From positions 96,210 through 160,209 of the forward strand of contig PWHW01000002.1 of NCBI GenBank assembly GCA_003555075.1: DNA of 64,000 nt. Direction: 5' to 3'. The translations under genes were made by a program, and so were the position numbers. Of the stretch, positions 17,466 through 56,562 are shown piece by piece (positions within the stretch are counted from its first letter, which is position 1; every line of letters begins with the position of its first letter). This DNA comes from Candidatus Nealsonbacteria bacterium. Lineage in GTDB: Bacteria; Patescibacteriota; Minisyncoccia; Minisyncoccales; PWPS01. The notes under the pieces were generated by a model. It made no database searches. It saw only the letters and a program-made list of their open reading frames with translations, and was not told the origin of the DNA.

Positions 17466-17622
17466 CAAAAAGATAAAGAAAGTTATAATTGCACTACCAT
17501 ACGATCAAATAGAAATCCGTAGACAGCAGGGACGTAAAGTTTAAAGATCCTGCCGAGGAGATCATCTCTAGCTTTTAGATTTGTTTCCAGCTGTCTGCGT
17601 AAAATTAACGCAGTTTTTTATT
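17466..17622 (+). promoter_or_regulatory. structured 5' leader upstream of rplJ (candidate L10 autoregulatory leader)
   Basis: A 157-nt untranslated region contains the long-range complementarity CGTAGACAGC...GCTGTCTGCG. Confidence 0.35.
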
Positions 17623-18138
17623 ATGGGCACTGTCACCAAAGAAAAGAAAAAAGAAATAATAGAGGATATCCGGAGAATGGCTGCGGATAATGATGGGATA
17701 TTCTTTATAAATTTCAAGGGAGTGAAGGGAGAAGAGATGAGATCCCTCAGGGGTGATATTAAAAAGGGGGAGGCAAGAATAATTGTAGCAAGAAAGACTC
17801 TTGCGAAAATAGCCTTTGAAAAAGAGGGGGTGGAATTTGACCCACTCTCACTTGAAGGAGAAGCAGGGTTTGTGTTTGGAATTCAAGATGGTATTGAGAC
17901 TGCAAAGATTCTTCGCAAGTTCGATAAAGAAGAAACGATCACCATTCTTGGTGGAGTTTATGATGGTAAAGTATTAAGTGCTGAAGAAGTAAGAAGTGTT
18001 GCTGAACTTCCTACGAGGGAAGAACTTCTCTCAAAGTTTTTGGGAACTTTATCTGCTCCCATGGGAGGGTTTGTCAATGCTCTTCAAGGCAATATAAAAG
18101 GTCTTGTAAGTGTTTTGGATCAAAAAGCAAAAGCATAA
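17623..18138 (+). CDS. rplJ: 50S ribosomal protein L10
   Basis: 172 aa 'MGTVTKEKKKEIIEDIRRMAADNDGIFFINFKGV' with an L10-like C-terminal helix. The ORF-track start 17581 was trimmed to ATG 17623. Confidence 0.85.
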   Translation: MGTVTKEKKKEIIEDIRRMAADNDGIFFINFKGVKGEEMRSLRGDIKKGEARIIVARKTLAKIAFEKEGVEFDPLSLEGEAGFVFGIQDGIETAKILRKFDKEETITILGGVYDGKVLSAEEVRSVAELPTREELLSKFLGTLSAPMGGFVNALQGNIKGLVSVLDQKAKA

Positions 18139-38531: not shown

Positions 38532-39869
38532 GTGGATAGCAGTGTTCTTTTGAAAAAATTAAATGGGTTAATAATTAGCTGTGCTAAAAGGTTCTTTATT
38601 GATGGATTGGACTTTGAAGACATGATACAGATTGGAAGAGTGGCAGCATGGAAAGGTATAGAAGATCATGAAATCACAGAAGACAACTACAAAAAGTATT
38701 TACCTCTTTTGAAAACCTATATCGTAAATGCACTTAAGACAGAATTGAAAAGAACGAAGGCAAAAAAGAGGATAAATCTTTCAGAATCAGTAAGAATTGA
38801 TGCTCCTGTCAGTTTTGAAAATGAAAGAAAGCTTCATGAACTTATAGAAGATAAAAAAAGCAGTGAAGATTTTTTTGAAAAAGAAAGGCAACAGAAGTTT
38901 CTAATGCAGCTCAAGGATCATGCTCTCAAAGAGAGGTCTCGGAAAAGCATAAAAGCTGTTGTTTGGTTTTTAGTGCATATTCTTGATATCAGAAAAGAAG
39001 AAATACCCAGAAAAATTTCATTTGAAATTTTTTACAAATTCGGTCTTCAATATTATTTATGGGTATTCTTTAACAACTCTCCTTACAGAGCTATTAACTA
39101 TGCTTATCCTGGTCAATTCTCTCCCTATGAAATGCTGAGAGTTCCAAATGGTTATTGGGGATCTGAGGGGAAAGCAGGATGGGGTAGGCGTAGGGCCATT
39201 AAAGCATTAAAAAAAGCATTGGAAAGTACCGGATATCCTCCGGAGCCCTATCCTAAAATAGCCAGCTATAGATTTTTTGTCGAAATGCGGCTTACTGCTC
39301 CCCTAAATAAGTTTTTCGGATGGAGTCAATATGCTTATTTGGACGCAGCTTTTCCCGGGAAGTATAAACCATGGGAAATGAACTTTTCTCCCAAAGGTTT
39401 CTTTGAAAAGAGAGAGAATATTGTCTCTGCCGTCAAATGGATGGTCGAGGAAAAAATGAACATCCCAATGGAGGAGCTAACAGTTTACGAGGTTTGGGAG
39501 ATGAGGATCGATAAGAAAATCACCAAAGAAATTTTTTCTTTCTATGGATTAAGAGAGGTTCTTGCTCGGTACAACAATTCTCCCGGAAAGGTGCTAAAAG
39601 ATGTTTATCCGGAAAAATTTTTACCATGGAGCTTTCCTTGTAAAGAAAAATGGAAAGGGGAAGAAGGGAAAAGATTGGCAGCACAAGCTACAAAATGGGT
39701 GATAGAGGAGTATGCGGGAATATCTCCATTGTCTTCTGAAATCGGGTATCGTTTTTTTACAGAGAATGGGCTCCATGGAATGATAACTAGCAGAAGTCTT
39801 GGCTTTAACTCATCTCCAAAGGCAGCATTGATCAATGCATATCCACATCTTAAAAGCTCTTTTGACTAA
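38532..39869 (+). CDS. hypothetical protein: sigma-70 region-2-like N-terminus plus four internal ~75-aa repeats
   Basis: GTG start 8 nt after AAGGAGGTGA. N-terminus 'FEDMIQIGRVAAWKGIEDHE' (sigma r2.2-like). Repeats of the form [FY]G..Y......SP..A...AYP..F.PWE...P.G.W (residues ~170-250, 250-330, 330-405, 405-445). Confidence 0.55.
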   Translation: MDSSVLLKKLNGLIISCAKRFFIDGLDFEDMIQIGRVAAWKGIEDHEITEDNYKKYLPLLKTYIVNALKTELKRTKAKKRINLSESVRIDAPVSFENERKLHELIEDKKSSEDFFEKERQQKFLMQLKDHALKERSRKSIKAVVWFLVHILDIRKEEIPRKISFEIFYKFGLQYYLWVFFNNSPYRAINYAYPGQFSPYEMLRVPNGYWGSEGKAGWGRRRAIKALKKALESTGYPPEPYPKIASYRFFVEMRLTAPLNKFFGWSQYAYLDAAFPGKYKPWEMNFSPKGFFEKRENIVSAVKWMVEEKMNIPMEELTVYEVWEMRIDKKITKEIFSFYGLREVLARYNNSPGKVLKDVYPEKFLPWSFPCKEKWKGEEGKRLAAQATKWVIEEYAGISPLSSEIGYRFFTENGLHGMITSRSLGFNSSPKAALINAYPHLKSSFD

Positions 39870-41412: not shown

Positions 41413-41442
41413 TTGACAATTGAAGCAATTTTTTTGTATAAT
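41413..41442 (+). promoter_or_regulatory. sigma70-like promoter
   Basis: TTGACA-N18-TATAAT. Confidence 0.5.
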
Positions 41443-41519
41443 AAAAGTATTATAAACACGAGAACTCTCGTATATTAGGGTGTTCCTTTAAAAATTAAAG
41501 ATATTAGGAGGTGAAAGGA

Positions 41520-42845
41520 TTGAAAAGATTTTTGCTTGTAATTGGTTTGCTTTTGTTTGCAGGTGTAGCGACACATTTTTACTTCTTTCCTCCTGAGAGG
41601 GAAGTAAAAGATGAAGTTCGAGAAACAAATGAAGAGGAGCTGATCGAAGAGGAAGAAAGTGGAGGGTATGTTACTTTTTGGTTTGATGACGGACTTTTGT
41701 CTACCTATGAAGTTGCATATCCTGCTTTAGAGGAGCGTGGATGGGAGGGTGCGCTTGCAATAGTGGCAGGCAGAGAAATTGCATTAGAAAAATTTGAACC
41801 AGAAGGAGATTCAATAATGAGTTGGGATCAAGTAAGGGAATTAGAAGAAAAAGGATGGGAAATATCGAGTCATTCCATGACTCATACCAATCTCTCAGAA
41901 GTAAGGGATAATGATTCCTTGAAAAAGGAGATTATTACTTCAAAAGAAATTCTTGAAGAAAAAGATTTTGAAGTGAATTCTTTTGTCTTTCCTTACGGAG
42001 ATCCCGGAAATGAAGTGGTTTATGATCTTGTTATGGAAAACTATTCCTATTGGAGATTGACCACCTCAGGTGTAAACTCTGTACCATCGACAAAGCGTTT
42101 AGAAACTCTCTTTTTGACAGAGTGTGCTGACAGAGAAGAAATTGACAAATGGATAGAAAAAACAGAGGAAAAGAGTGGTTGGCTTATTATTGTTTTGCAC
42201 TCTATTCTTGAGGAACCGATTGGTTGGTGGCAGCAAACTCCGGAGCAATTTAATATGGTATTGGAGGCTGTAGAGGAAAGTTCTTTGGAAATTGTTTTGC
42301 CCAAAGATATATTTGAAAAATATGGCTATAAAGAAGATTGCTTGTCAAATGTAGAGATCAATGAAGTTCCCAGAACAGTAATTAGTGAAAGTGATTTTAA
42401 TGATAATCAGGTAGAAATAGTTATTCCTTCAATAAACGTGAGAACTTCTTTAAAGCTTGCTTTCTCAGAAGGGGAGGAAATTGATTTTTCGTATTTAGAT
42501 GATCATCCTGTAATGATCTCGGAGAATGAAAGTCCTTTTCTTAGTTCATTAGGAGAATACGGGACAGGATTGATTCTTTGTCATCGCAATCTCTTTTTTA
42601 GAGAACTTGATAAGCTAGAAAAAGAAGAGGAGTTTATGATCGTGAAAAATGATCGTGAGATTGTTTATGAGGTTTTTGACTCTATAGAAGTTGCTCCCGA
42701 TGATGTTTGGGAGCAAGTAAAGGAGATTCATGAAAAAGGATTAAGTGCGGAGGAGTCCAATGTCATTTTGATGACTTGCACTCCCTACGGACTCGGATGG
42801 GATAGGTTACTTGTTTTCGGAAGAACGGTTGAGAATATGAATTGA
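41520..42845 (+). CDS. fusion protein: N-terminal TM, NodB polysaccharide deacetylase domain, C-terminal sortase-like domain
   Basis: NodB motifs 'VTFWFDDGLLSTYE' and 'SHSMTHTNL'. The C-terminus has sortase-like catalytic motifs 'GLILCHRN' (His), 'NVILMTCTPYG' (L-x-TC Cys) and an Arg 10 residues later ('WDRLLVFGR'). TTG 41520 follows AGGAGGTGA; the ORF-track GTG 41511 abuts the SD. Confidence 0.55.
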   Translation: MKRFLLVIGLLLFAGVATHFYFFPPEREVKDEVRETNEEELIEEEESGGYVTFWFDDGLLSTYEVAYPALEERGWEGALAIVAGREIALEKFEPEGDSIMSWDQVRELEEKGWEISSHSMTHTNLSEVRDNDSLKKEIITSKEILEEKDFEVNSFVFPYGDPGNEVVYDLVMENYSYWRLTTSGVNSVPSTKRLETLFLTECADREEIDKWIEKTEEKSGWLIIVLHSILEEPIGWWQQTPEQFNMVLEAVEESSLEIVLPKDIFEKYGYKEDCLSNVEINEVPRTVISESDFNDNQVEIVIPSINVRTSLKLAFSEGEEIDFSYLDDHPVMISENESPFLSSLGEYGTGLILCHRNLFFRELDKLEKEEEFMIVKNDREIVYEVFDSIEVAPDDVWEQVKEIHEKGLSAEESNVILMTCTPYGLGWDRLLVFGRTVENMN

Positions 42846-42875: not shown

Positions 42876-43949
42876 GTGATATTGGTGGGAGTTTTTGCAA
42901 TACTTCCGGCGCACAATGAGGAGAAAAATATTGGCAATGCTGTTAAAGATCTTTTATTGCAAACAGTTAAAATTGAAAAGATAATTGTAGTGGCTGACAA
43001 TTGTAGCGATGGTACTGTTGAGGAAGTTAAAAGACTTTGCAGTGAATATGCCGATATTGAGCTCATGGAAACGAAAGGGAATCATTACCGTAAAGCAGGA
43101 GCAATAAACATGGCAATAGATGTGATAAGTGATGAAGATTGCGAGTTCTTGCTTGTTATGGACTCCGATTCCAGAGTGGCATTGGATTTGGTGGAAAGAG
43201 CAATGGAATCCTTTGAGAGTGAAGAAAACCTAGGGGGAGTTTGCTCTACTGCACATGTCATTAAACCTCAAAATCTACCTTCTTCTTGGATTAGGAACCT
43301 GGAAGCTCGGTTTATGGGAGCGTTGCAGAGACTTGAATATGCTGGGTTTGATGCCGAAAGAGTTGCGACTTGGAATAATGTAACTATTCTACATGGTTTA
43401 TGTGCAGTTTATAGATTCAAAGCGATAAAGGAAGCAGGAGGATATACTCTCGGACACCTTATAGAGGATTACGATCTTACAGTGAAATTAAAGAAGCTCG
43501 GTTGGCAAGCAAGGTTTAATCCAAAAATGGTTGCTTGGACAGAAGTGCCACTGAGTTTGAAATCTTTTTTCAAACAGCGACTAAGATGGATGAGAGGCGG
43601 GATTGATGTCTTGGTGGATCATGGAATAAACAGGATTACCATAGAGGATGCATTTCATCACTTTCTTTTCATCTGCCTTCTCTTGGCAATATCAGGGTTT
43701 ATAATTCTATCTTTTATTTATCACGGAGAGTGGAGGTTCGGGTTTAATCCTCATCCAATACCTATTCTTGTAGCGATTATTGGCTACCTTATAAGTCTTT
43801 ATAAATTACGCTACTTAAAAGATGCGAGATTTTCGGAGATAATTCTAAGGATTATAATTCTCCCGGAACTCTTAATTGCGATTGCATTAATGGGGGTTCG
43901 AACATATGCGTATTTTCTAGCATTATTCAAATGCTCTCAAGAATGGTAA
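42876..43949 (+). CDS. family 2 glycosyltransferase, processive type (QxxRW), with C-terminal TM helices
   Basis: 'LPAHNEEKNIGNAV...VVADNCSDGT', DxD 'VMDSDS', 'QRLRWMRGG', and three C-terminal TM helices. Confidence 0.75.
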   Translation: MILVGVFAILPAHNEEKNIGNAVKDLLLQTVKIEKIIVVADNCSDGTVEEVKRLCSEYADIELMETKGNHYRKAGAINMAIDVISDEDCEFLLVMDSDSRVALDLVERAMESFESEENLGGVCSTAHVIKPQNLPSSWIRNLEARFMGALQRLEYAGFDAERVATWNNVTILHGLCAVYRFKAIKEAGGYTLGHLIEDYDLTVKLKKLGWQARFNPKMVAWTEVPLSLKSFFKQRLRWMRGGIDVLVDHGINRITIEDAFHHFLFICLLLAISGFIILSFIYHGEWRFGFNPHPIPILVAIIGYLISLYKLRYLKDARFSEIILRIIILPELLIAIALMGVRTYAYFLALFKCSQEW

Positions 43950-43977
43950 TAATCTTGAAGAAAGGAGGGTTGAGAAA

Positions 43978-44136
43978 ATGCCATATGGAGAAGTTGCTTT
44001 ACCGTCTACGGGTGGATTTCTTTTGGGAGGAGCAATTGGACTCTTTTACGATTGGGCCATTGCTATTGTCGTAGTGATTTTAGTTCTTTCATTAATAGGA
44101 GTGTGGAGATTGTATAGAGGTCAAAAAACAATATAA
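43978..44136 (+). CDS. 52-aa micro-protein that is essentially a complete LPXTG sorting signal
   Basis: The ATG sits 8 nt after GAAAGGAGGG. Protein: 'MPYGEVALPSTGGFLLGGAIGLFYDWAIAIVVVILVLSLIGVWRLYRGQKTI'. It has LPSTG, then a ~27-aa hydrophobic segment, then an R/K tail. Not in the ORF track (<60 aa). Confidence 0.5.
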   Translation: MPYGEVALPSTGGFLLGGAIGLFYDWAIAIVVVILVLSLIGVWRLYRGQKTI

Positions 44137-44163
44137 CACACCCTAAAAGTTCTTTCTTAAATA

Positions 44164-44191
44164 ACACGTCTTAAATTAGACGTGTTTTTTT
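44164..44191 (+). terminator. rho-independent terminator
   Basis: ACACGTCT-TAAATT-AGACGTGT followed by TTTTTTT. Confidence 0.7.
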
Positions 44192-44212
44192 GTAAAATGG
44201 ACATTATTTCTC

Positions 44213-44240
44213 TTGACATTTTTTTCATTTGACGTAGAAT
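44213..44240 (+). promoter_or_regulatory. sigma70-like promoter
   Basis: TTGACA-N16-TAGAAT. Confidence 0.5.
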
Positions 44241-44299
44241 ATAAGGACTAGATCCTATTTTTAAAATAGGAAGTTCACTAGTAAGAAAGGAGGAGTACA

Positions 44300-44845
44300 T
44301 TGAAAAAAATTTTAGAATGGATGGTCACAGGAATTCTGATTTTAGCGATCTTTCTTTTTATTTTTATGTTCATCGGCCCTAGGTTTGGCTGGGAAACCCA
44401 CCCTGTTCTTTCCGGTTCTATGGAGCCGGCCTTGGAGGTGGGGGGAATAATTGTTACTAAGCCTGAAAAGTTGGAAAATATTCAAAAAGGGGATATTATT
44501 ACGTTCCAAACAGAAGGGCCAAAAGTAACGCACCGTATAGTGGACATAAAAGAAATTGAAGGTGAACGATGGTTTCAAACCAAAGGAGACGCTAATAAGG
44601 AACCCGATCGTGACCTTGTCTCTTCTCAAGGAGATGTGATGAGAAAGGTCTTTCTCTACCTTCCTTATTTGGGCTTTGCCGCTCAATTTATGCAAAGCAA
44701 ATGGGCTTTCATTGTTCTTGTCGGAATTCCTTCTGTTATTTTAATAGGATGGCTTGGCAAGGATGTTTGGGAAGGAATTGAAGAAGAGAGAAGGAAAAAG
44801 AGGAAAAAAGAAGAGAATGAGGAAGATCGCAAGGAAGGAGAGTGA
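44300..44845 (+). CDS. SipW-type (ER/archaeal-type) signal peptidase I
   Basis: TTG start. TM followed by 'VLSGSMEPALEVGGIIV' (catalytic Ser), 'THRIV' and 'TKGDAN'. A C-terminal TM and a K/E tail. Confidence 0.7.
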   Translation: MKKILEWMVTGILILAIFLFIFMFIGPRFGWETHPVLSGSMEPALEVGGIIVTKPEKLENIQKGDIITFQTEGPKVTHRIVDIKEIEGERWFQTKGDANKEPDRDLVSSQGDVMRKVFLYLPYLGFAAQFMQSKWAFIVLVGIPSVILIGWLGKDVWEGIEEERRKKRKKEENEEDRKEGE

Positions 44846-44972
44846 TTTCCATCTATCGTTTTTATTACTAGTGATTGCACTTTTAAAAAGAGATAAGAGG
44901 TGTTGAGCTTAAAATTACTTCTTTGGATGTTTTACAATAATATGACTCCAAAGGAGAGAAAGGAGGAGTCAA

Positions 44973-45638
44973 TTGAAAAAAGTACTAGCTTTTTTCTTGG
45001 TACTTGCAATGAGTGTTGGCTTAGTTGGGGCAGGAACCACAGCATATTTTACTGACACTGAAGAATCTAGCAGTAATTCTTTTACGGCCGGAGTGTGGGA
45101 AACTGAGCAAGAAGAAGAAATTGAAGAAGATCTGATGATGCTTGAAGAGGAAACAGTTCAAGAAAGTGTTTATGATGAAAAGGAAGAACTTGACAACCCT
45201 GAAGAGTCCGGTAATGACGAGGGCACCGAAGGAGAGAACGACGAAGAAACCGAAAGTGATGATCCTGAAGGCGAAGAAACTAACGGTGAGGAACCGGAGA
45301 ATGAAGAATCCGAGGCTTCCGAAGAAGAATCAGGAGAAAATGATGTTTCTTGTGATTCTGACGATGAAGAATGCTCCGATGATGAAGAATCTATGAATGG
45401 TGATCCCGAAGATCCTCAGGACTCTGAAGACGGGGAATCCCAAGAAGAAGAAAGCGTATCAGACGAAGAAGAGAGCGGTGCTGATGAGTGCGTGGAAGAG
45501 GAAGATGAAGAGTCCGGTAATGACGAGGGCACCGAAGAAGAGAGCGACGAAGAAACCGAAAGTGATGATTCTGAAGGCGAAGAAACTAACGGTGAGGAAC
45601 CGGAGAGTGAAGAATCCGAAGCTTCCGGAGAAGAATAG
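44973..45638 (+). CDS. SipW-cognate-signal-peptide protein with a polyacidic tandem-repeat tail
   Basis: TTG start. 'AMSVGLVGAGTTAYFTDTEESSSNSFTAG' is the TasA/camelysin-class signal motif. The remaining ~175 aa is E/D/S-rich and contains two ~41-aa repeats (nt 45205-45330 and 45512-45636). Confidence 0.6.
   Translation: MKKVLAFFLVLAMSVGLVGAGTTAYFTDTEESSSNSFTAGVWETEQEEEIEEDLMMLEEETVQESVYDEKEELDNPEESGNDEGTEGENDEETESDDPEGEETNGEEPENEESEASEEESGENDVSCDSDDEECSDDEESMNGDPEDPQDSEDGESQEEESVSDEEESGADECVEEEDEESGNDEGTEEESDEETESDDSEGEETNGEEPESEESEASGEE
45205..45636 (+). repeat. two ~125-nt direct repeats inside the acidic-protein CDS
   Basis: tccggtaatgacgagggcaccgaag...gaagaaactaacggtgaggaaccggag occurs at 45205 and 45512, ~90% identical and frame-preserving. 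Confidence 0.7.
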
Positions 45639-45642
45639 GTTA

Positions 45643-45671
45643 TTGACAAAAACTGTATAATTTGTTATACT
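45643..45671 (+). promoter_or_regulatory. sigma70-like promoter
   Basis: TTGACA-N17-TATACT; the spacer contains AAAACTGTA. Confidence 0.5.
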
Positions 45672-45795
45672 GAAAAATTCTATTATGATCTTTCAAAAGA
45701 AAGGAGGCCGGAGTAAAGAGGTATGCGAAAAGCTCTTCCTTGGGAATTCACCAAAAACGGTGAAAAATCCAACTCAAGGAAGAAAGGAGGACTAG

Positions 45796-46404
45796 ATGAA
45801 AAAGAAGTTAGTTTTTAGTTTGTTGGCTCTTATGTTGGTGGTTGGACTTGTTGGAGCAGGTTCGTTTGCGGTTTTCAGTGATACGGAGAAAAGCGAGGAA
45901 AATGTTTTCCAAGCCGGAACGTTGGAGCTTGACGTGGAAGGTGCAGATGAAGGAGTTACGACATACAGTTTTGAAAACATCAAGCCCGGTGATATCGGTG
46001 GCTGGGATGGTCTTCACGACAATCCGCAATGGATTACTGAAAGGCCGCAGTGGACAGTTAAAAACACAGGTTCACTTCCGGGTGAGCTGACCGTCACTAT
46101 TGAGAATATTCGAGACTATGATGAAAATGACAACCAAATCGACACTGCAGACGGAGCGTTGTCATGGGCAATAGATATATGGTTTAAGGGTGGTGGCAGC
46201 AACTTCTGGGGACATCTTGGCAGGGGAGAACCAGCTCTTGTGATAGACTTAGATCCCGGTGATGAGATTACTGTGCAGTGTCAGTGGCAACTAGGCAGTG
46301 AGCCGAATGATGGCTGGAATGTTTTGCAAGGACATAGTACCGAATTTGACGTGAGGTTCTACCTGGAACAAACAGAAGAACCAACGGCGGATGTTTCACC
46401 ATAA
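45796..46404 (+). CDS. TasA/camelysin-family (Peptidase_M73-like) secreted protein with SipW-cognate signal peptide
   Basis: 'LMLVVGLVGAGSFAVFSDTEKSEENVFQAGTLELDV', 'FENIKPGD', 'WTVKNTGSLPGELTV'. These parallel Bacillus TasA 'AAFNDIKSKDATFASGTLDL', 'NLKPGD' and 'FQFENNGSL'. Confidence 0.7.
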   Translation: MKKKLVFSLLALMLVVGLVGAGSFAVFSDTEKSEENVFQAGTLELDVEGADEGVTTYSFENIKPGDIGGWDGLHDNPQWITERPQWTVKNTGSLPGELTVTIENIRDYDENDNQIDTADGALSWAIDIWFKGGGSNFWGHLGRGEPALVIDLDPGDEITVQCQWQLGSEPNDGWNVLQGHSTEFDVRFYLEQTEEPTADVSP

Positions 46405-51328: not shown

Positions 51329-52843
51329 ATGAGTAAAAGAGTTATTATCATTATCATAGTAGTTGTTTTGGTGGGAATCGGAGTAATGATGAGTTTTAAG
51401 TTTGATTTTGGCATGGATTTAAAGGAAGAGAATGATGAACCTTACATTTCCGGAGAAATATGCTTAGTATCCGATGATAATGTTCTTCTGGCTGAAGAGA
51501 TCGATGCGGAAGAGTGTACGGGAGATCTAAATGAACTTAAAGGAAGTGCGGGATATTTCAGGGTGGACGAAGAGACGAAAATAATAGGAAAAGAAGGAAA
51601 GGAGATCCCATTTGATGAGTTGATGCCCGGAAATCAGGCAAAGATATGGACTGTTGGGCCCATTATGGAAAGTTATCCTGTTCAAGCCAGTGCTTCCAAG
51701 ATAGAACTTTTGGAAGAAGGAGAAGAGCTTGAAGCGGAAGGGTCTAAAGAGGAAAAGGATGACAAAGAGAAGGAAAGAAATAATGAGTGGTCATACAATG
51801 AAGAGCTTGGAGGGGATCTGAAGGAAGTTAAAGGTCAGATCACGGAGTGCCTGTACTCTGTAAAAGGTGTGCCATCTCCAAAAGGAGTTTCTTTCTCTCC
51901 CGACGAAGAGGAGTTTTGGGTAACTTCTTTAATGAATGAATCCGAGGGAGTGGTGGTGTTTGAAAGAAAAACAGGAAAGAAGAAGGAGGGTATGACTTTG
52001 CCCGGGGGAGGGGGAGTGGAGATTATTTTTGATCAGAGTGGCTCCTATGCTTTTGTTAGTCAAATGGAGACGGGGAGGGTGTTCATGATTGATGCGGACA
52101 AGAAGAAGATCGTTGAAACTTTTGACACGGAAGGAAGCTGGACGAAAGTCATGGATCTTTCTCCGGATGAGGAGACCATTTATGCTTCGAATTGGTCAAG
52201 TCACAACGTTTCGGCGATCGATCTTGGATCGGGAAAAGTGACTGATCTTCTCAGTGCCGTGAACACTCCGCGAGGTATTTATGCTACGGAAGACGGTAGT
52301 GAGCTTTATGTTGCAGGATTTGAAAAAGGAGAAATACAAAGGATAAATTTGCACACGAAAGAAAGCGAGGTGATATATGAAAGCGGAGGTTCAATGAGAC
52401 ACATTGTGGGCGATGAGAAAAATGAAACCCTTTATTTTTCCGATATGGGGAATGCGGCTATTTATGAGTTTGACAAGGAGGATGAAGAAGTAAGAAAGTT
52501 TGCGGATACCGAAAGAAACCCTAACACCATAGCCCTCAGTCCCGACAACAAGGTTCTTGCGGTATCAAACAGAGGAGCTAACCATCCTTCGGGAAACTAT
52601 AATATTCCCGGACCGGAGTGGGGAAGTGTTCTTTTTTTTGACACCTCGACCGGAGAAGCGGTTGATGCTATTTTGGGAGGAAATCAACCTACGGCACTTG
52701 ATATATCAGAAAGCGGGAAATACTTGGCATTCTCCAACTTTTTGGATGGCGAGATAAATATTTGCAAATTTCCCGAAACAAAAGATATGCTGGAAGGTGA
52801 AGGAGGAGGATTTCCGGGGTACAAAGAAAAGATCGCAAAATAA
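51329..52843 (+). CDS. YVTN-family beta-propeller repeat protein, membrane-anchored/secreted
   Basis: N-terminal TM. Repeated ~40-aa YVTN-like units ('YASNWSSHNVSAIDLGSGKV', 'LYVAGFEKGEIQRINLHT', 'LAVSNRGANHPSG'). Confidence 0.6.
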   Translation: MSKRVIIIIIVVVLVGIGVMMSFKFDFGMDLKEENDEPYISGEICLVSDDNVLLAEEIDAEECTGDLNELKGSAGYFRVDEETKIIGKEGKEIPFDELMPGNQAKIWTVGPIMESYPVQASASKIELLEEGEELEAEGSKEEKDDKEKERNNEWSYNEELGGDLKEVKGQITECLYSVKGVPSPKGVSFSPDEEEFWVTSLMNESEGVVVFERKTGKKKEGMTLPGGGGVEIIFDQSGSYAFVSQMETGRVFMIDADKKKIVETFDTEGSWTKVMDLSPDEETIYASNWSSHNVSAIDLGSGKVTDLLSAVNTPRGIYATEDGSELYVAGFEKGEIQRINLHTKESEVIYESGGSMRHIVGDEKNETLYFSDMGNAAIYEFDKEDEEVRKFADTERNPNTIALSPDNKVLAVSNRGANHPSGNYNIPGPEWGSVLFFDTSTGEAVDAILGGNQPTALDISESGKYLAFSNFLDGEINICKFPETKDMLEGEGGGFPGYKEKIAK

Positions 52844-52882: not shown

Positions 52883-54214
52883 ATGCGTGGTATAAGTATA
52901 AAAGATGAAAACTCGATACCTCTCGTGATATTGGTCACAGTTGTGATACTTTTAGGCGTTTTATGGGTATTGATACAGCTGGATGTCGATATAGACATGG
53001 GTCAAGTGGTGCCTTTCATGAGAGGAGAGGTGGTTCCCGACTATGCAAAAGAAGGGCTGGCGGATGCCGAAGGAGTAACTCTGGAAGGGATGCGAAGTGT
53101 TGAAAAAGCAAGTAGTAAGTTCGCGTTTGATGTTTACGAGGAACTTGCAAAAGAAGAGGGTAATATAGTTTTTTCTCCTTACGGCGTCTCTACTGTGCTT
53201 TCTATGACCTACGAAGGGTCCAAGGGGGATACAAAAGAGGAAATAGGGGAGGCGATCAACATTCCAAGAGAAGATGATGTTCGCAGACCGGCGATGGGTG
53301 CTGTTTATAACAAAATAAATCGCGAGGATGCCGGCTATGATATTGAGACCCTCAATTCAGTTTGGATCCGGGAAAATTATGAGCCATTTTCCGATTTTAT
53401 TGATGTAATTGAAAGGTTTTACGTAGGGCAAGTCAATAGTGTTGACCTTGAGGATGATCCCGAAAACACGAGGGCAAGCATGAATGAGAAGGTTAAAGAT
53501 ATCACGGGAGATATTATAGAAGAGCTTTTTCCTCGCGGATCGGTAGCCGATAAGACTACGATGATGTTGGCAAATGCGGTTCATTTTGACGGTAACTGGG
53601 AGATCGAATTCAACAAAGAGCATACAGAAAAGGAAGATTTTCATATTACCGAAGAGGAAACTTTGGAGGTTGCAATGATGCAAGGCGAAGGAGAATATGG
53701 ATATTATGAAAATGAGGAAGCTCAAATTCTTGAACTCTCATATGAGGATAAAAACGCTTCAATGCTTGTTATTCTTCCCAAAGAAGGGAATCTTGCATCT
53801 CTTGAGAACGAACTTGATTTTGAAAAGATGAATGAATGGAAAGAAGGAATTGAAGAAGAGAAAGTGAGGGTATATCTTCCTCGGTTTAAAATTGGAATGA
53901 GACACAAAATGAGCGATCATCTTAAGAATCTGGGAGTGCTTCTTGCGTTTGACAGGGAAGAAGCGGATTTTTCAAATATCTTTGAGCAAGAAGAAGAGAA
54001 TCTGTTTCTTGATGAGATTATTCATGGTGCTTTCATCTCTGTTAACGAGAAAGAGGCAGAAATACTCGAAGAAACGGAAGAGGAAGAAACAGAGGAGGAA
54101 AAAGAAGAAGATATGATGGTTTTCAGAGCGGATAATCCTTTTATTTTCACTGTCATTGAAAAGGAGGGTGGAAACATTATTCTCATGGGAAGAGTGCAAA
54201 ATCCTTTAGAGTAG
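52883..54214 (+). CDS. serpin-family protein with a poly-Glu reactive-centre-loop hinge
   Basis: 'NIVFSPYGVSTVLSMTYEGSKG', 'NAVHFDGNWEIEF', C-terminal 'FRADNPFIFTVIE' (compare FxADHPFLF). The hinge 'EKEAEILEETEEEETEEEKEED' replaces the usual GTEAAAAT. Confidence 0.8.
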   Translation: MRGISIKDENSIPLVILVTVVILLGVLWVLIQLDVDIDMGQVVPFMRGEVVPDYAKEGLADAEGVTLEGMRSVEKASSKFAFDVYEELAKEEGNIVFSPYGVSTVLSMTYEGSKGDTKEEIGEAINIPREDDVRRPAMGAVYNKINREDAGYDIETLNSVWIRENYEPFSDFIDVIERFYVGQVNSVDLEDDPENTRASMNEKVKDITGDIIEELFPRGSVADKTTMMLANAVHFDGNWEIEFNKEHTEKEDFHITEEETLEVAMMQGEGEYGYYENEEAQILELSYEDKNASMLVILPKEGNLASLENELDFEKMNEWKEGIEEEKVRVYLPRFKIGMRHKMSDHLKNLGVLLAFDREEADFSNIFEQEEENLFLDEIIHGAFISVNEKEAEILEETEEEETEEEKEEDMMVFRADNPFIFTVIEKEGGNIILMGRVQNPLE

Positions 54215-55356: not shown

Positions 55357-56562
55357 ATGATGGGTTTTGCAGAAGTTGTGAAAATGGAAAGCGGGAACGT
55401 TATTGATTTGATGAAAGATGTTTTTCCTAAGAACCACGGTTTCTATCACTACATCAGAGAAAAAGGAAGTTATGTATATTTAGAAGATGTTCTCGAGGAA
55501 GCACTTGATTCATTGGACGAAGAGCATGCAATGGTTTTAAAGGAATGTTATTTCAACAGGAGTACGTATAAAAGTATTGCGAGAAAAATGGGAGTGAGAG
55601 GAGAGACGGTAAAAGCAAAGAAAAAGAAAGGATTGAGAGATTTAAGGCTTTATTGGGCAAAAGAACTTAGTAAGTTCAAAGTTCCTGCCCCTGAAGAGCT
55701 TGAAGAGAAAGAAAGGAAAATAAGAGAAAGAGAGGAGATAAAAGAAGAGCTTCATAGATTTGTAGAAGTTTTGAGCGATATTGAAAAAGAAGAGGATGAG
55801 AATGGCGAAACGATCATCGCAAAGGCAATGAAAAAAATGTTTCCGAGTGTGGAAACGGATCGAAAAGCGCTCAAGGAGTTGGCAGCTAGATATCCCGAAG
55901 AAAAAAAGCTGTGGAAGAAAATTAGCTTTGCAGGACTTGATCGTCTCTCGGAATTGAAAAAAAGGGTGGAAAATAATGAGATAATGAACATAAAGGGCAT
56001 AGGAGAGAAGGGTTATAGGAAGCTAAAGCAAATACTTGAAGAAACAAAAGAAGAGGTTCAAGATGTAAGCGTGGAGTCTGTTCCTCTTGATAACGGGATT
56101 ATGGATCTTTGGGAGGCAATAGAGCAAGAGATGGAGAAGAAGATAAGAGAAACGGAAGCAAGGATGAGGAAAAAGAAAAAGGACTCGGAAGCTCTTGAAA
56201 AAGTATTGTCACGATACAAGGACAATAGAATCAGTAATATACTTAAAAGAAAAGGAGTGAAAGGGCTTTCTCATCTTAAAGAGATGATAGAAAGTGGAAG
56301 AATAAAGGAGTTAAGAGGGATTGGAAGCACCAGCGAATCTTTTCTTAGAATGGTACTGAAAAAAGAGAGGGAGACGGTGGAAGAGCTGGAAGATGAGATG
56401 AAGGTGATAGAAGAAGAAAAGGTGACAAGAAGAATGGAAGAGATCGAAGTTGAAACAGATCAGTTGCCTGCAAAATTTTTAGAAGAAGAGCATGAAAAAT
56501 TAAAAGCTCTTTTACGCCTCAGAGGTAGACTTTTCATAAGGAGGAAAATGTTCTTTGAGTGA
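55357..56562 (+). CDS. hypothetical DNA-binding protein: sigma-70 region-4-like HTH plus helix-hairpin-helix repeats
   Basis: 'LDEEHAMVLKECYFNRSTYKSIARKMGVRGETVKAKKKKGLRDLR' (sigma r4 / LuxR-like). HhH motifs 'IMNIKGIGEKGYRKL' and 'IKELRGIGSTSESFL'. The remainder is K/E-rich. Confidence 0.5.
   Translation: MMGFAEVVKMESGNVIDLMKDVFPKNHGFYHYIREKGSYVYLEDVLEEALDSLDEEHAMVLKECYFNRSTYKSIARKMGVRGETVKAKKKKGLRDLRLYWAKELSKFKVPAPEELEEKERKIREREEIKEELHRFVEVLSDIEKEEDENGETIIAKAMKKMFPSVETDRKALKELAARYPEEKKLWKKISFAGLDRLSELKKRVENNEIMNIKGIGEKGYRKLKQILEETKEEVQDVSVESVPLDNGIMDLWEAIEQEMEKKIRETEARMRKKKKDSEALEKVLSRYKDNRISNILKRKGVKGLSHLKEMIESGRIKELRGIGSTSESFLRMVLKKERETVEELEDEMKVIEEEKVTRRMEEIEVETDQLPAKFLEEEHEKLKALLRLRGRLFIRRKMFFE

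What the first reader, a model, noticed from the sequence alone, without database searches (positions are those of the whole stretch)
41520..42845. Polysaccharide deacetylase fused to a sortase catalytic domain
The N-terminal two-thirds is a NodB-type deacetylase: 'WFDDG' Asp motif and 'SHSMTH' His motif. The last ~150 aa have the sortase catalytic triad in canonical order and spacing: '...LILCHRN...', '...NVILMTCTPYG...' and an Arg about 10 residues later. Sortases are normally stand-alone enzymes. Fusing one to a carbohydrate esterase family 4 (CE4) deacetylase suggests coupled cell-wall glycan editing and protein anchoring.
Basis: partly seen in the sequence, partly recalled or inferred. 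Interest (0 to 1): 0.7.

Follow-up and report, generated by a model that had tools for sequence, protein, structure and literature searches.

The report
Deacetylase-sortase fusion with mini substrate
An uncultivated ultra-small (CPR/Patescibacteria) bacterium carries a real but rare fusion of a sugar-polymer deacetylase to a protein-anchoring sortase, in a three-gene operon with a polysaccharide synthase and a 52-residue protein that is little more than a sortase recognition signal, which hints at an undescribed way of coupling a secreted polysaccharide to the cell surface.

Summary
ORF 41520-42845 (+, 441 aa) encodes a membrane-tethered protein with a CE4/NodB deacetylase domain (aa 46-268) and a complete sortase domain (aa 293-438). 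Both pass Pfam's gathering scores. Catalytic residues are conserved (D56/D57/H118/H122/H227; H355/C420/R429). The AlphaFold model matches solved class C sortases (probability 1.0). The fusion is rare: about 9 of 1.84 billion cluster representatives, almost all labelled Patescibacteria.

The new result is the context. A promoter and a terminator bracket a three-gene operon: fusion gene, processive PgaC/IcaA-like GT2 synthase, and a 52-aa micro-ORF (43978-44136), MPYGEVA-LPSTG-helix-RLYRGQK, which is a bare sorting signal.

The GT2 plus micro-ORF pair recurs with CE4-sortase, sortase alone or CE4 alone upstream. Of 32 distinct micro-proteins, 27 carry [L/I]PxTG. Only the Tyr and the LPxT Thr are invariant in the first 17-sequence alignment.

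The micro-protein is most likely the sortase's dedicated substrate. The acceptor and the purpose are unknown. The glycan is probably an exopolysaccharide rather than peptidoglycan, and the "protein" is an 11-residue peptide. I found no literature on this system.

The parts
41413..41442 (+). Sigma-70-type promoter of the operon (TTGACA, 18 nt, TATAAT)
   Evidence: 12 of 12 consensus matches, the best site in the scanned region. Sequence read.
41506..41511 (+). Shine-Dalgarno AGGAGG, 8 nt upstream of the TTG start
   Evidence: Sequence read. It overlaps the GTG at 41511 that the ORF listing picked, which favours TTG 41520 as the true start.
41520..42845 (+). CE4 deacetylase-sortase fusion gene (441 aa)
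41520..41585 (+). N-terminal hydrophobic signal anchor (aa 1-22). An acidic disordered spacer follows (aa 23-45).
   Evidence: AF2 models helix 2-22 and gives pLDDT below 50 for 22-45. About half of the orthologues have a lipobox (LTGC, LSGC, LVGC) here.
41655..42323 (+). CE4 / NodB-type polysaccharide deacetylase domain (aa 46-268). Catalytic codons: D56 41685, D57 41688, H118 41871, H122 41883, H227 42198.
   Evidence: Pfam PF01522. These residues are invariant in alignments A1 and A2. Foldseek hit to the CE4 structure 7ax7. Nearest PDB sequences are PplD, BpsB, IcaB and PgaB. Coordinates.
42324..42395 (+). Flexible interdomain linker (aa 269-292)
   Evidence: pLDDT below 50 for aa 271-284. 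No DP[FWY] lid motif in this stretch.
42396..42833 (+). Sortase domain (aa 293-438). Catalytic codons: H355 42582, C420 42777, R429 42804.
   Evidence: Pfam PF04203. H355, C420 and R429 are invariant in A2. Fold match to class C, E and D sortases. Residue-level alignment to class C sortases.
42876..43949 (+). Processive family-2 glycosyltransferase (357 aa from GTG 42876; the NCBI call is 355 aa). It has DSD, ED and QRLRW motifs and C-terminal membrane helices.
   Evidence: Pfam Glycos_transf_2, Glyco_tranf_2_3 and Glyco_trans_2_3. Best NCBIfam hit is PgaC_IcaA at 6e-31, below its cut-off. Nearest PDB sequences are BcsA cellulose synthases. Motifs. It sits directly downstream of the fusion or its variants in every locus.
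43963..43968 (+). Shine-Dalgarno AGGAGG, 9 nt upstream of the micro-ORF ATG
   Evidence: Sequence read.
43978..44136 (+). Micro-ORF (52 aa): MPYGEVA-LPSTG-single helix-RLYRGQKTI. Candidate dedicated sortase substrate. Tyr3 codon at 43984-43986.
43999..44013 (+). LPSTG motif codons (aa 8-12 of the micro-protein). The predicted scissile bond is T11-G12.
   Evidence: Coordinates. Thr11 is invariant in 17 of 17 and 21 of 21 aligned homologues.
44163..44196 (+). Intrinsic terminator closing the operon (9-bp stem, 6-nt loop, T-run)
   Evidence: A separate promoter for the sipW operon follows at 44213-44240 (11 of 12 matches).

Best explanation
The gene encodes a genuine bifunctional enzyme on the outer face of the membrane. 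It belongs to a three-gene exopolysaccharide module, bounded by a promoter and a terminator, in a Patescibacteria (CPR) genome.

Shown by sequence and structure comparison:
- An N-terminal membrane anchor, an intact CE4 deacetylase domain, a flexible linker, and an intact class-C-like sortase domain that has no lid and no membrane anchor of its own.
- Co-transcription signals shared with a processive GT2 synthase (QRLRW motif) and a 52-aa single-helix micro-protein. The micro-protein's disordered N-tail carries a conserved Tyr and LPSTG, and its C-tail is basic.

Inferred from homology:
- The GT2 polymerises and extrudes a beta-linked N-acetyl-hexosamine polymer of the PNAG/chitin type.
- The CE4 domain partly de-N-acetylates that polymer, as IcaB and PgaB do.

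Inferred from conserved gene association and motif conservation (about 0.6 probability):
- The micro-protein occupies the IcaD/PgaD position beside the synthase, with its N-terminus outside the cell, and is the dedicated acyl donor of the sortase.
- Cys420 attacks the Thr11-Gly12 bond, and the 11-residue peptide MPYGEVALPST becomes thioester-linked to the enzyme.
- An amine acceptor then takes the peptide.

Speculative: I consider a cell-wall precursor or peptidoglycan stem peptide the most likely acceptor. On this reading the peptide serves as a covalent tether or handle for the synthase product, through the invariant Tyr.

The fusion itself is one of three interchangeable layouts upstream of the invariant GT2 and micro-protein pair: CE4-sortase, sortase alone, and CE4 alone.
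For: Domains and fold:
- Both domains pass Pfam's gathering scores.
- The AF2 model has mean pLDDT 81.9, with about 90 in both domains.
- Foldseek against the PDB gives class C sortases first (probability 1.0, rmsd 2.7-3.9 A), then classes E and D, plus the CE4 structure 7ax7.
- cHRn, TCTPYG and RLLV align in register with solved class C sortases.
- The CE4 half is nearest to PplD, BpsB, IcaB and PgaB.
- D56, D57, H118, H122, H227, H355, C420 and R429 are invariant across 9 fused proteins at 35-48% identity.

Transcription unit:
- Promoter with 12 of 12 consensus matches at 41413, terminator at 44163, and a new promoter at 44213.
- AGGAGG ribosome-binding sites before gene 1 and before the micro-ORF.

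Cassette conservation:
- GT2 plus a 52-66 aa ORF follows the fusion in all 11 distinct fused loci that are long enough to show it.
- The closest stand-alone sortases (P0030, P0033, P0034, P0031) also sit directly upstream of a GT2 gene. Where the contig extends far enough (L042/L043, L047), the micro-ORF follows.
- P0030 is 69% identical to the sortase domain of fused P0006 and shares its lipobox.
- Starting independently from the micro-protein recovers sortase, GT2 and micro-ORF again.

Micro-protein:
- It is the only ORF of 460 in the window with a complete sorting-signal pattern.
- It accounts for 13 of 14 detector hits among 1,997 ORFs in 342 kb of related loci.
- Of 32 distinct homologues, 27 have [L/I]PxTG, 3 have LPVTS and 2 have VI(T/A)TG.
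- The only invariant residues in the 17-sequence alignment are Tyr3 and Thr11, the acyl-forming residue.
- The three LPVTS variants all belong to the clade that lacks a sortase domain.
- pN/pS is 0.36-0.61 with near-saturated synonymous sites, so it evolves as a coding sequence.
- AF2 models a disordered tail at residues 1-12 and one continuous helix at 13-51, not a hairpin. With the +3 C-tail this places LPSTG outside the cell.
- No other sortase was detected in the window or in the flanks.
Against: - Nothing here is experimental. Substrate status rests on gene association and a motif.
- CE4-only cassettes (L007, L026) keep LPVTG or LPSTG, yet no sortase lies within 6-12 kb. Either the motif has a second role or the sortase acts in trans.
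- The two WWE3-like fused members have VI(T/A)TG, which lacks the usually critical Pro.
- A sortase substrate with no signal peptide and only 5-7 residues of 'cargo' has no precedent that I know of.
- The N-out topology is inferred only from the positive-inside rule and a single-helix model of moderate confidence (mean pLDDT 70).
- The curated LPXTG_anchor model scores two homologues below its cut-off (11 and 12.3 bits against 15.9) and does not hit the window's copy.
- I designed the sorting-signal detector after seeing the motif.
- The polymer's identity is inferred. The GT2 scores far below the PgaC/IcaA equivalog cut-off (107.8 against 422.3), and the CE4 domain far below the PgaB cut-off (28.1 against 321.9).
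Confidence: 0.55

Rival explanations
1. Housekeeping sortase fused for co-localisation. The sortase domain anchors ordinary LPXTG surface proteins that are encoded elsewhere in the genome. The micro-protein is only an IcaD/PgaD-like accessory subunit of the synthase, and its LPxTG-like N-tail is conserved for reasons unrelated to sortase.
For: Sortases are common in CPR genomes, and many CPR surface proteins carry sortase motifs (PMC6744442, PMC5220378). The micro-protein sits where icaD and pgaD sit, and it persists in CE4-only cassettes. Only 64 kb of this genome could be examined.
Against: No other sorting-signal protein lies within about 342 kb of related loci or in the window. The sortase tracks the GT2 and micro-ORF pair even when the CE4 domain is absent. 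Housekeeping sortases have no such linkage. The motif is the most conserved part of the micro-protein, and the scissile Thr is invariant. The micro-protein has no detectable similarity to IcaD or PgaD models, even at E up to 10.
Confidence: 0.2
2. Glycan as acceptor. The fused CE4 domain exposes free glucosamine amines on the nascent polymer. The adjacent sortase uses those amines as its nucleophile, amide-linking the micro-protein's peptide (or other LPXTG proteins) directly to the polysaccharide.
For: The fusion places an amine-generating domain and an amine-consuming domain on one flexible tether. There is a conceptual precedent in type IX secretion. The CE4 enzyme VimE deacetylates a linking sugar, whose new amine, after aminoacylation, is amide-bonded to the cargo C-terminus by the sortase-like PorU (PMC7468200). 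PEP-CTERM/exosortase loci also carry PF01522 deacetylases (PMC1569441).
Against: Sortase-only cassettes with no CE4 gene nearby exist and are close relatives, at 69% identity. CE4-only cassettes exist as well. The deacetylase is therefore not obligatory for the sortase step. In T9SS the amine that is used belongs to an added amino acid, not to the sugar itself.
Confidence: 0.12
3. Regulatory pseudo-substrate or chaperone. The micro-protein modulates the sortase or the synthase. It could act like SafA, which protects actinobacterial SrtA, or sortase cleavage could switch synthase activity. No cargo is delivered.
For: [quoted passage not shown] SafA binds the sortase through an exoplasmic motif (PMC9282373). 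The 'cargo' here is implausibly small for an adhesin.
Against: SafA uses an FPW motif, not LPXTG. Here the micro-ORF follows the GT2, not the sortase, and persists without any sortase. The invariant Thr and the TGGG context fit catalysis better than mere binding.
Confidence: 0.08
4. Artefact or dead domain. The fusion is a mis-assembly or read-through of two genes, or the sortase domain is a catalytically inactive binding module.
For: All members come from metagenome assemblies. Two contigs are binned as 'Bacillota' and 'archaeon'.
Against: The identical ORF appears in two independent assemblies. The architecture is conserved at 34-48% identity in at least 11 loci. His, Cys and Arg and the TCTPYG loop are invariant. 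The fold is modelled with confidence.
Confidence: 0.03

Closest known systems
Ica / Pga poly-beta-1,6-N-acetylglucosamine (PNAG) systems (IcaADBC, PgaABCD)
   Same: All have a processive GT2 synthase with a QxxRW motif, a small membrane partner encoded next to it, and an extracytoplasmic CE4 de-N-acetylase. The GT2's best NCBIfam hit is PgaC_IcaA. The CE4 domain's nearest solved relatives include BpsB, PgaB and IcaB.
   Different: All equivalog cut-offs are missed by a wide margin. The small partner has no similarity to IcaD or PgaD and carries LPxTG. There is no IcaC or PgaA. A sortase domain is attached, which no Ica or Pga system has.
Dedicated sortase-substrate operons (class C pilus loci; class B SrtB-IsdC; single-target sortases). 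From my own knowledge of the sortase literature.
   Same: The sortase is encoded with its own cognate sorting-signal gene. The fold and the TCTPYG...RLLV core are closest to class C.
   Different: There is no lid, no C-terminal membrane anchor, no pilin genes and no pilin motif. The class C model scores 45.5 bits against a cut-off of 160. The candidate substrate has 5-7 residues of cargo and no signal peptide. The operon partner is a polysaccharide synthase.
Actinomyces oris GspA-LcpA-SrtA pathway (PMC6381275)
   Same: An LPXTG protein is loaded with a glycopolymer and is a cell-wall-anchored sortase substrate. This shows that a sortase can deliver glycan to the wall through a protein carrier.
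   Different: GspA is a full-size secreted protein that is glycosylated by an LCP phosphotransferase. Here there is no LCP gene, the carrier would be an 11-residue peptide, and glycosylation of it is purely hypothetical.
PEP-CTERM/exosortase-EPS loci and T9SS PorU with the Vim pathway (PMC1569441, PMC7468200)
   Same: A sorting transpeptidase is genetically tied to exopolysaccharide or glycolipid biosynthesis genes that include CE4 deacetylases. In T9SS a deacetylation step prepares the sugar that becomes amide-linked to the cargo C-terminus.
   Different: Exosortase and PorU are not homologous to sortase. Their signals differ (PEP-CTERM, CTD). They belong to diderm bacteria. Neither is fused to the deacetylase.
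SafA, the small membrane protein downstream of the actinobacterial housekeeping sortase (PMC9282373)
   Same: It is a conserved small single-pass membrane protein that is genetically linked to a sortase and has a functional exoplasmic motif.
   Different: SafA's motif is FPW, and it blocks signal-peptidase cleavage of SrtA. The micro-protein here has LPxTG, follows the GT2, and also occurs where no sortase is encoded nearby.

Membership tests
CE4 / NodB polysaccharide deacetylase (Pfam PF01522) | Profile match above the curated gathering score | tested here: met
   52.6 bits against a cut-off of 23.1, E 5.8e-14.
CE4 / NodB polysaccharide deacetylase (Pfam PF01522) | Asp-His-His metal triad plus catalytic Asp and His (motifs TFDDG, H[ST]xxH, LxH) | tested here: met
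   D56, D57, H118, H122 and H227 are invariant in 9 fused proteins. They are also present in the unfused relatives. The canonical Arg of motif 3 (RxPY) is Phe here (FPYG). An invariant W178-R179 may substitute for it.
CE4 / NodB polysaccharide deacetylase (Pfam PF01522) | Distorted (beta/alpha) barrel fold | tested here: met
   Foldseek hit to the Xyl-CE4 domain 7ax7, TM-score 0.68 normalised to the target, probability 1.0. pLDDT is about 90 across the domain.
PgaB / IcaB PNAG de-N-acetylase (equivalog) | NCBIfam TIGR03938 score above its cut-off | tested here: not met
   28.1 bits against 321.9. It works like these enzymes by context, but it is not a member.
PgaC / IcaA PNAG synthase (for the neighbouring GT2) | NCBIfam TIGR03937 score above its cut-off; processive D,D,D,QxxRW motifs | tested here: inconclusive
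   It is the best hit, but at 107.8 bits against a cut-off of 422.3. DSD, ED and QRLRW motifs are present. The polymer's identity is unproven.
Sortase (Pfam PF04203, MEROPS C60) | Profile match above the gathering score | tested here: met
   41.6 bits against 26.6, E 1.3e-10, covering 122 of 125 profile positions.
Sortase (Pfam PF04203, MEROPS C60) | His, Cys and Arg catalytic residues in canonical order, with a TLxTC-type Cys loop | tested here: met
   H355, C420 (LMTCTPYG) and R429 are invariant. They align in register with solved class C sortases.
Sortase (Pfam PF04203, MEROPS C60) | Eight-stranded beta-barrel fold | tested here: met
   More than 40 solved sortases match at probability 1.00. 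The best are 7d6t, 4d7w, 2xwg and 3g69, with rmsd 2.7-3.9 A.
Sortase (Pfam PF04203, MEROPS C60) | His, Cys and Arg juxtaposed in space | tested here: inconclusive
   Model coordinates are not exposed, so no distances could be measured. Juxtaposition is implied by the low-rmsd superposition and the in-register alignment.
Sortase (Pfam PF04203, MEROPS C60) | Transpeptidase activity on an LPXTG-type signal | not testable with these tools
   This needs an enzyme assay.
Class C (pilus-polymerising) sortase | NCBIfam NF033745 score above its cut-off | tested here: not met
   45.5 bits against 160, with only aa 360-437 matched. Class E, D and GN models score lower still.
Class C (pilus-polymerising) sortase | N-terminal lid with a DP[FWY] anchor over the active site; C-terminal membrane helix | tested here: not met
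   There is no DP[FWY] in the 60 residues before strand 1. That stretch is a disordered linker. The protein ends 12 residues after R429.
Class C (pilus-polymerising) sortase | Adjacent pilin genes with a pilin motif and LPXTG | tested here: not met
   None in the window or in the related loci. The neighbours are the GT2 and the micro-ORF.
LPXTG cell-wall sorting signal (TIGR01167), for the micro-protein | LPXTG, then a hydrophobic segment, then a basic tail at the C-terminus | tested here: met
   LPSTG (aa 8-12), helix 13-51, and the tail RLYRGQKTI.
LPXTG cell-wall sorting signal (TIGR01167), for the micro-protein | Curated model score above its cut-off | tested here: not met
   There is no hit for the window's copy. 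Two homologues score 11 and 12.3 bits against 15.9.
LPXTG cell-wall sorting signal (TIGR01167), for the micro-protein | Preceded by an N-terminal signal peptide and a passenger domain | tested here: not met
   Only 5-7 residues precede the motif, and there is no signal peptide. All 25 database homologues are 52-96 aa.
IcaD / PgaD synthase accessory proteins, for the micro-protein | Sequence similarity to the IcaD or PgaD families | tested here: not met
   Neither family is hit in Pfam or NCBIfam, even at E up to 10. Only gene position and small size are shared.

The most novel reading that the evidence does not exclude
The cassette is a sortase-dependent system for anchoring a polysaccharide. 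The GT2-made, partly deacetylated polymer would be covalently carried on the invariant Tyr of the micro-protein's short N-tail; the tail could even prime the polymer. The sortase would then cut at LPxT|G and transfer the glyco-peptide to peptidoglycan, or to another amine on the surface. A processive synthase product would thereby be tethered to the cell surface through an 11-residue ribosomal peptide. This route would be distinct from LCP-type ligases and from all known sortase cargos.
Probability: 0.15. Interest if true: 0.9.

Novelty: new variant of a known kind. Interest (0 to 1): 0.68.

Why it matters
CPR/Patescibacteria make up a large share of bacterial diversity and live attached to other cells. 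Their envelope and attachment chemistry are almost entirely unknown.

This locus offers a compact, testable four-part module: synthase, deacetylase, sortase and a micro-protein that is essentially a bare sorting signal. If the micro-protein is the sortase's substrate, it would be the smallest natural sortase substrate I know of. It would also be the first sortase I am aware of that is dedicated to a polysaccharide synthase. That points to a new way of coupling an exopolysaccharide to the cell surface, or of regulating a synthase by transpeptidation.

The module is small enough (about 2.7 kb) to reconstitute in another host. A lid-less, naturally soluble sortase domain with a defined peptide partner could also interest protein-ligation engineers. 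Even the conservative reading matters: it shows that CE4 and sortase domains are swapped in and out upstream of a fixed synthase and micro-protein pair, which is a clear case of modular operon evolution.

Tried and rejected
1. Assembly or read-through artefact. Rejected: the ORF is identical in two independent assemblies, and at least 11 diverged orthologues keep it.
2. Class C pilus sortase. Rejected as membership: the curated cut-off is missed, and there are no lid, no C-terminal anchor and no pilins.
3. The neighbouring SipW/TasA-like genes (44300-46404) as sortase substrates or operon partners. Rejected: they lack LPXTG, they lie behind a terminator and their own promoter, and they are absent next to the cassette in other genomes.
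4. Micro-protein as IcaD or PgaD. No profile similarity.
5. Word-index search with the sortase domain alone returned nothing, not even the protein itself, so it was uninformative.
6. The AFDB50 fold library was unavailable. I could not survey UniProt or AFDB for the architecture. The HMMER scan of 1.84 billion representatives served instead.
7. A search for a second sortase, using a family HMM, in the window and in all flanks of the CE4-only cassettes found none. That HMM may miss distant sortase classes.
8. A helical-hairpin topology for the micro-protein, which would put LPSTG in the cytoplasm. Not supported: AF2 gives one continuous helix, and the roughly 31-residue hydrophobic stretch is too short for two membrane passes.
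9. Head-to-tail polymerisation or cyclisation of the micro-protein peptide by a class-C-like polymerase. I considered this and found no evidence for or against it, so it is left as speculation.
10. Six literature searches found no description of a deacetylase-sortase fusion or of an LPXTG micro-protein beside a synthase.
11. Tandem Repeats Finder reported no repeats in the acidic SipW-signal protein gene.
Full report
**1.

The ORF lister starts it at GTG 41511 (444 aa), but that GTG overlaps the AGGAGG Shine-Dalgarno at 41506-41511. The properly spaced start is TTG 41520, which gives 441 aa. I use 441-aa numbering below.

All quoted motifs are present: FWFDDG (D56/D57), SSHSMTH (H118/H122), LILCHRN (H355), LMTCTPYG (C420), and R429 nine residues later. 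Pfam places Polysacc_deac_1 at 52.6 bits (cut-off 23.1) and Sortase at 41.6 bits (cut-off 26.6), with nearly full-length coverage of the sortase model.

The identical protein is encoded in an NCBI metagenome-assembled genome (GCA_003552105.1, contig PUOL01000024.1) and in an independent Logan assembly of SRR490134. A frameshift or chimeric join is therefore not the explanation.

**2. Both domains look functional, and the sortase fold test is passed**

An AlphaFold2 model built on nine fused homologues has mean pLDDT 81.9. Both domains score about 90. The acidic spacer (aa 22-45) and the interdomain linker (aa 271-284) are disordered.

Foldseek against the PDB returns class C sortases first (7d6t, 4g1h, 4d7w, 2xwg, 3g69). 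These have probability 1.00, 24-28% identity and rmsd 2.7-3.9 A over about 145 columns. Class E and D sortases follow, then the CE4 domain 7ax7.

At sequence level, cHRn, TCTPYG and RLLV align in register with the catalytic His, Cys and Arg elements of solved class C sortases. The deacetylase half is nearest to PplD (6dq3), BpsB (5bu6), IcaB (4wcj) and PgaB (4u10, 4f9d).

Across nine fused proteins at 35-48% identity, D56, D57, H118, H122, H227, H355, R356, C420 and R429 are invariant.

The domain is not a class C member. The NCBIfam class C model scores 45.5 bits against a cut-off of 160. No DP[FWY] lid motif precedes strand 1. There is no C-terminal membrane helix.

I could not measure His-Cys-Arg distances, because model coordinates are not exposed.

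**3. The family is rare and found mainly in CPR**

A HMMER scan of 1.84 billion 50%-identity cluster representatives found only about nine that match both domains in one stretch: P0001, P0003, P0008, P0018-P0022 and P0028.

Members with an organism label are Patescibacteria: Saccharibacteria, Dojkabacteria, WWE3 and 'Patescibacteria group'. Two short contigs are binned as 'Bacillota' and 'archaeon'.

Sortases in general are known to be common in CPR (PMC6744442). Six literature searches found no description of this fusion.

**4. The gene is the first of a three-gene operon**

- A 12-of-12 sigma-70-type promoter lies at 41413-41442.
- A 9-bp-stem intrinsic terminator lies at 44163-44186, followed by a T-run.
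- A fresh promoter at 44213 then drives the next gene, sipW.

Between the promoter and the terminator lie three genes:
- the fusion gene;
- a 357-aa family-2 glycosyltransferase (42876-43949). It carries DSD, ED and QRLRW motifs and C-terminal membrane helices. Its best NCBIfam hit is PgaC/IcaA, and its nearest PDB sequences are BcsA cellulose synthases;
- a 52-aa ORF (43978-44136) with its own AGGAGG ribosome-binding site.

The trio of deacetylase, processive synthase and small membrane protein has the logic of the Ica/Pga PNAG systems. Every curated equivalog threshold is missed by a wide margin, however.

**5. The small ORF is essentially a naked sorting signal**

Its sequence is MPYGEVA-LPSTG-GFLLGGAIGLFYDWAIAIVVVILVLSLIGVW-RLYRGQKTI.

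A simple detector looked for [LIVFM]Px[TSA][GSAN], then a hydrophobic stretch with no charged residues, then a basic tail, all within the last 70 residues. It finds this ORF and nothing else among 460 six-frame ORFs in the 64-kb window. Across 48 related loci (342 kb, 1,997 ORFs) it gives 14 distinct hits. Thirteen are the equivalent micro-ORFs. The fourteenth is an internal LPTAS in a 599-aa ORF that corresponds to the GATase/SIS (GlmS-type) gene of L003.

A profile of 17 micro-ORFs retrieved 25 database proteins. All are 52-96 aa, all are 'hypothetical', and none has a Pfam domain. None is the tail of a larger cargo protein.

Among 32 distinct sequences, 27 carry [L/I]PxTG, 3 carry LPVTS and 2 carry VI(T/A)TG.

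In the 17-sequence alignment the only invariant residues are Tyr3 and Thr11. Thr11 is the residue that would form the acyl-enzyme bond. The surrounding consensus is Y-G-P-x-L-P-x-T-G-G-G, and a conserved RL+KGEK tail closes the protein.

Pairwise pN/pS values of 0.36-0.61, with near-saturated synonymous sites, show that it evolves as a coding sequence.

AlphaFold models residues 1-12 as disordered and residues 13-51 as one continuous helix, not a hairpin. Together with the +3 C-tail, this places the LPSTG tail outside the cell. The signal-anchored (in about half of the orthologues, lipoprotein-anchored) sortase also sits there.

**6. The sortase tracks the synthase and micro-protein pair, not the deacetylase**

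GT2 plus micro-ORF follows the fusion in all 11 distinct fused loci that are long enough to show it.

The closest stand-alone relatives of the sortase domain are P0030, P0031, P0033 and P0034 (200-245 aa, each with its own lipobox or membrane anchor). Each is encoded directly upstream of a GT2 gene. Where the contig is long enough (L042/L043, L047), an LPATG or LPPTG micro-ORF follows, and no deacetylase gene is present.

P0030 is 69% identical to the sortase domain of fused P0006 and shares its FFLTGC lipobox. The CE4 domain has therefore been cleanly removed or inserted between the anchor and the sortase.

Starting independently from micro-proteins P0183 and P0181 again lands on sortase, GT2 and micro-ORF.

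CE4-only cassettes also exist (L007, L009, L013, L026), as does one CE4-CE4 protein, P0009.

A neighbour-joining tree of the CE4 domain, without bootstrap support, nests the unfused forms inside the fused clade. The window's closest CE4 relatives (58-60% identity) are unfused, which suggests repeated loss of the sortase domain.

All three LPVTS micro-proteins belong to one sortase-less clade. This fits relaxation of the P1' Gly after sortase loss, but it counts as only one lineage.

**7. Most likely mechanism, and its limits**

Shown:
- domain identities, conserved catalytic residues and the sortase fold;
- the operon boundaries;
- the three cassette layouts;
- conservation of the micro-protein motif.

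Inferred from homology:
- The GT2 extrudes a beta-linked N-acetyl-hexosamine polymer.
- The tethered CE4 domain partly de-N-acetylates it.

Inferred from association (about 0.6):
- The micro-protein is the sortase's dedicated acyl donor and is cut at Thr11-Gly12.

Unknown:
- The acceptor and the purpose.

Three published precedents frame the options.
- In Actinomyces oris, the cell-wall-anchored protein GspA is glycosylated by LcpA (PMC6381275). A sortase substrate can therefore carry a glycopolymer to the wall.
- In type IX secretion, a CE4 deacetylase prepares the linking sugar that is amide-bonded to cargo by the sortase-like PorU (PMC7468200).
- PEP-CTERM/exosortase loci couple protein sorting to EPS genes that include PF01522 deacetylases (PMC1569441).

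Sortase-only cassettes argue that the CE4-made amine is not the obligatory acceptor. CE4-only cassettes that keep LPxTG argue either for a sortase acting in trans or for a second role of the motif. SafA (PMC9282373) shows that small sortase-linked membrane proteins can be regulators rather than substrates.

**8. Verdict**

The finding is real, and it is more interesting than first stated. The fusion is one layout of a conserved CPR module in which a sortase is dedicated to a polysaccharide synthase and an LPxTG micro-protein. All parts belong to known families, so I rate it a new variant of a known kind. The combination and the minimal substrate appear to be undescribed. The main weaknesses are three: there are no experimental data, whole genomes could not be inspected for sortases acting in trans, and the detector was designed after the motif had been seen.

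Noticed in passing
window 44213-46404 (+), possibly to 47026: Directly downstream, behind its own promoter, lies a SipW-type signal peptidase (44300-44845; NCBIfam SipW 2.5e-34). Two proteins with SipW-dependent signal peptides follow (44973-45638 and 45796-46404), and the second resembles TasA/camelysin at its N-terminus. An EPS operon next to a sipW-tasA-like fibre operon recalls the Bacillus subtilis biofilm-matrix loci. This pairing is not conserved in the other genomes that carry the cassette.
   Followed up: partly
window 44973-45638 (+): This 221-aa protein has a SipW-type signal peptide followed by an extremely acidic, low-complexity body rich in Glu, Asp and Ser. By eye it contains two near-identical blocks (GNDEGTE..DEETESDD.EGEETNGEEPE.EESEAS). 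Tandem Repeats Finder reported nothing at DNA level.
   Followed up: partly
window 52883-54214 (+): A full-length serpin (Pfam Serpin, E 9.7e-102, 443 aa) in what appears to be a CPR genome. Bacterial serpins are sporadic. A beta-propeller/lactonase-like protein precedes it (51329-52843).
   Followed up: no
window 1-64000: GC skew is positive in 31 of 32 2-kb bins, reaching +0.39, and nearly all long ORFs are on the + strand. This is a strong strand asymmetry of the kind reported for a Microgenomates genome (PMC7143001, title seen). The whole window probably lies on one replichore.
   Followed up: no
window 38532-39869 (+); L001 7013-8350: A 445-aa ORF has a sigma-70 region 2 at its N-terminus and a long repeated C-terminal extension (faint DUF4046 hits). 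The NCBI annotation of the same DNA splits it into 111-aa and 321-aa genes, whereas the Logan call keeps 445 aa. A second atypical protein with sigma-70 region 4 lies at 55357-56562.
   Followed up: no
P0009 (513 aa, 3,858-bp NCBI contig; its micro-protein is P0169): A sister protein replaces the sortase domain with a second CE4-like domain (GNHSHTHPD motif). Its cassette's micro-protein reads LPVTS. The C-terminal position after the first CE4 domain therefore seems to be a swap site for different extracytoplasmic modules.
   Followed up: partly
L003 10942-12723 (-); L051 8562-9065 (+); L005 7206-7886 (-) and 10745-11110 (-): The cassette's neighbours in other genomes include a GlmS-type GATase/SIS gene (supply of the UDP-GlcNAc precursor), a GH18 chitinase-family gene, a YkuD L,D-transpeptidase and an SLT lytic transglycosylase. 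This is weak circumstantial support for a GlcNAc-based polymer and for involvement of the cell wall.
   Followed up: no
L012 (JBPOHM010000148.1) and L015 (JABXGV010000193.1): Complete fused cassettes sit on short contigs (3.3 and 2.8 kb) that are binned as 'Bacillota' and 'archaeon' MAGs. Mis-binning of CPR contigs is more likely than real occurrence outside CPR, but horizontal transfer is not excluded.
   Followed up: no
L005 10398-10559 and L016 7644-7802: The WWE3-like fused cassettes have micro-proteins that begin MYK(N/P)VI(T/A)TGGG. They lack the Pro of LPxTG, and the YK(N/P) start loosely recalls the YPKN pilin motif, whose Lys is the nucleophile for class C sortases. This could indicate altered specificity. 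I did not examine it further.
   Followed up: no
window 17499-17629 (+): A ribosomal protein L10 leader (Rfam RF00557, 57.2 bits) and six tRNA genes (Tyr, Thr, Trp, Val, Glu, Gln) were found. These are ordinary housekeeping context, consistent with a chromosomal rather than a mobile-element origin for the window.
   Followed up: no
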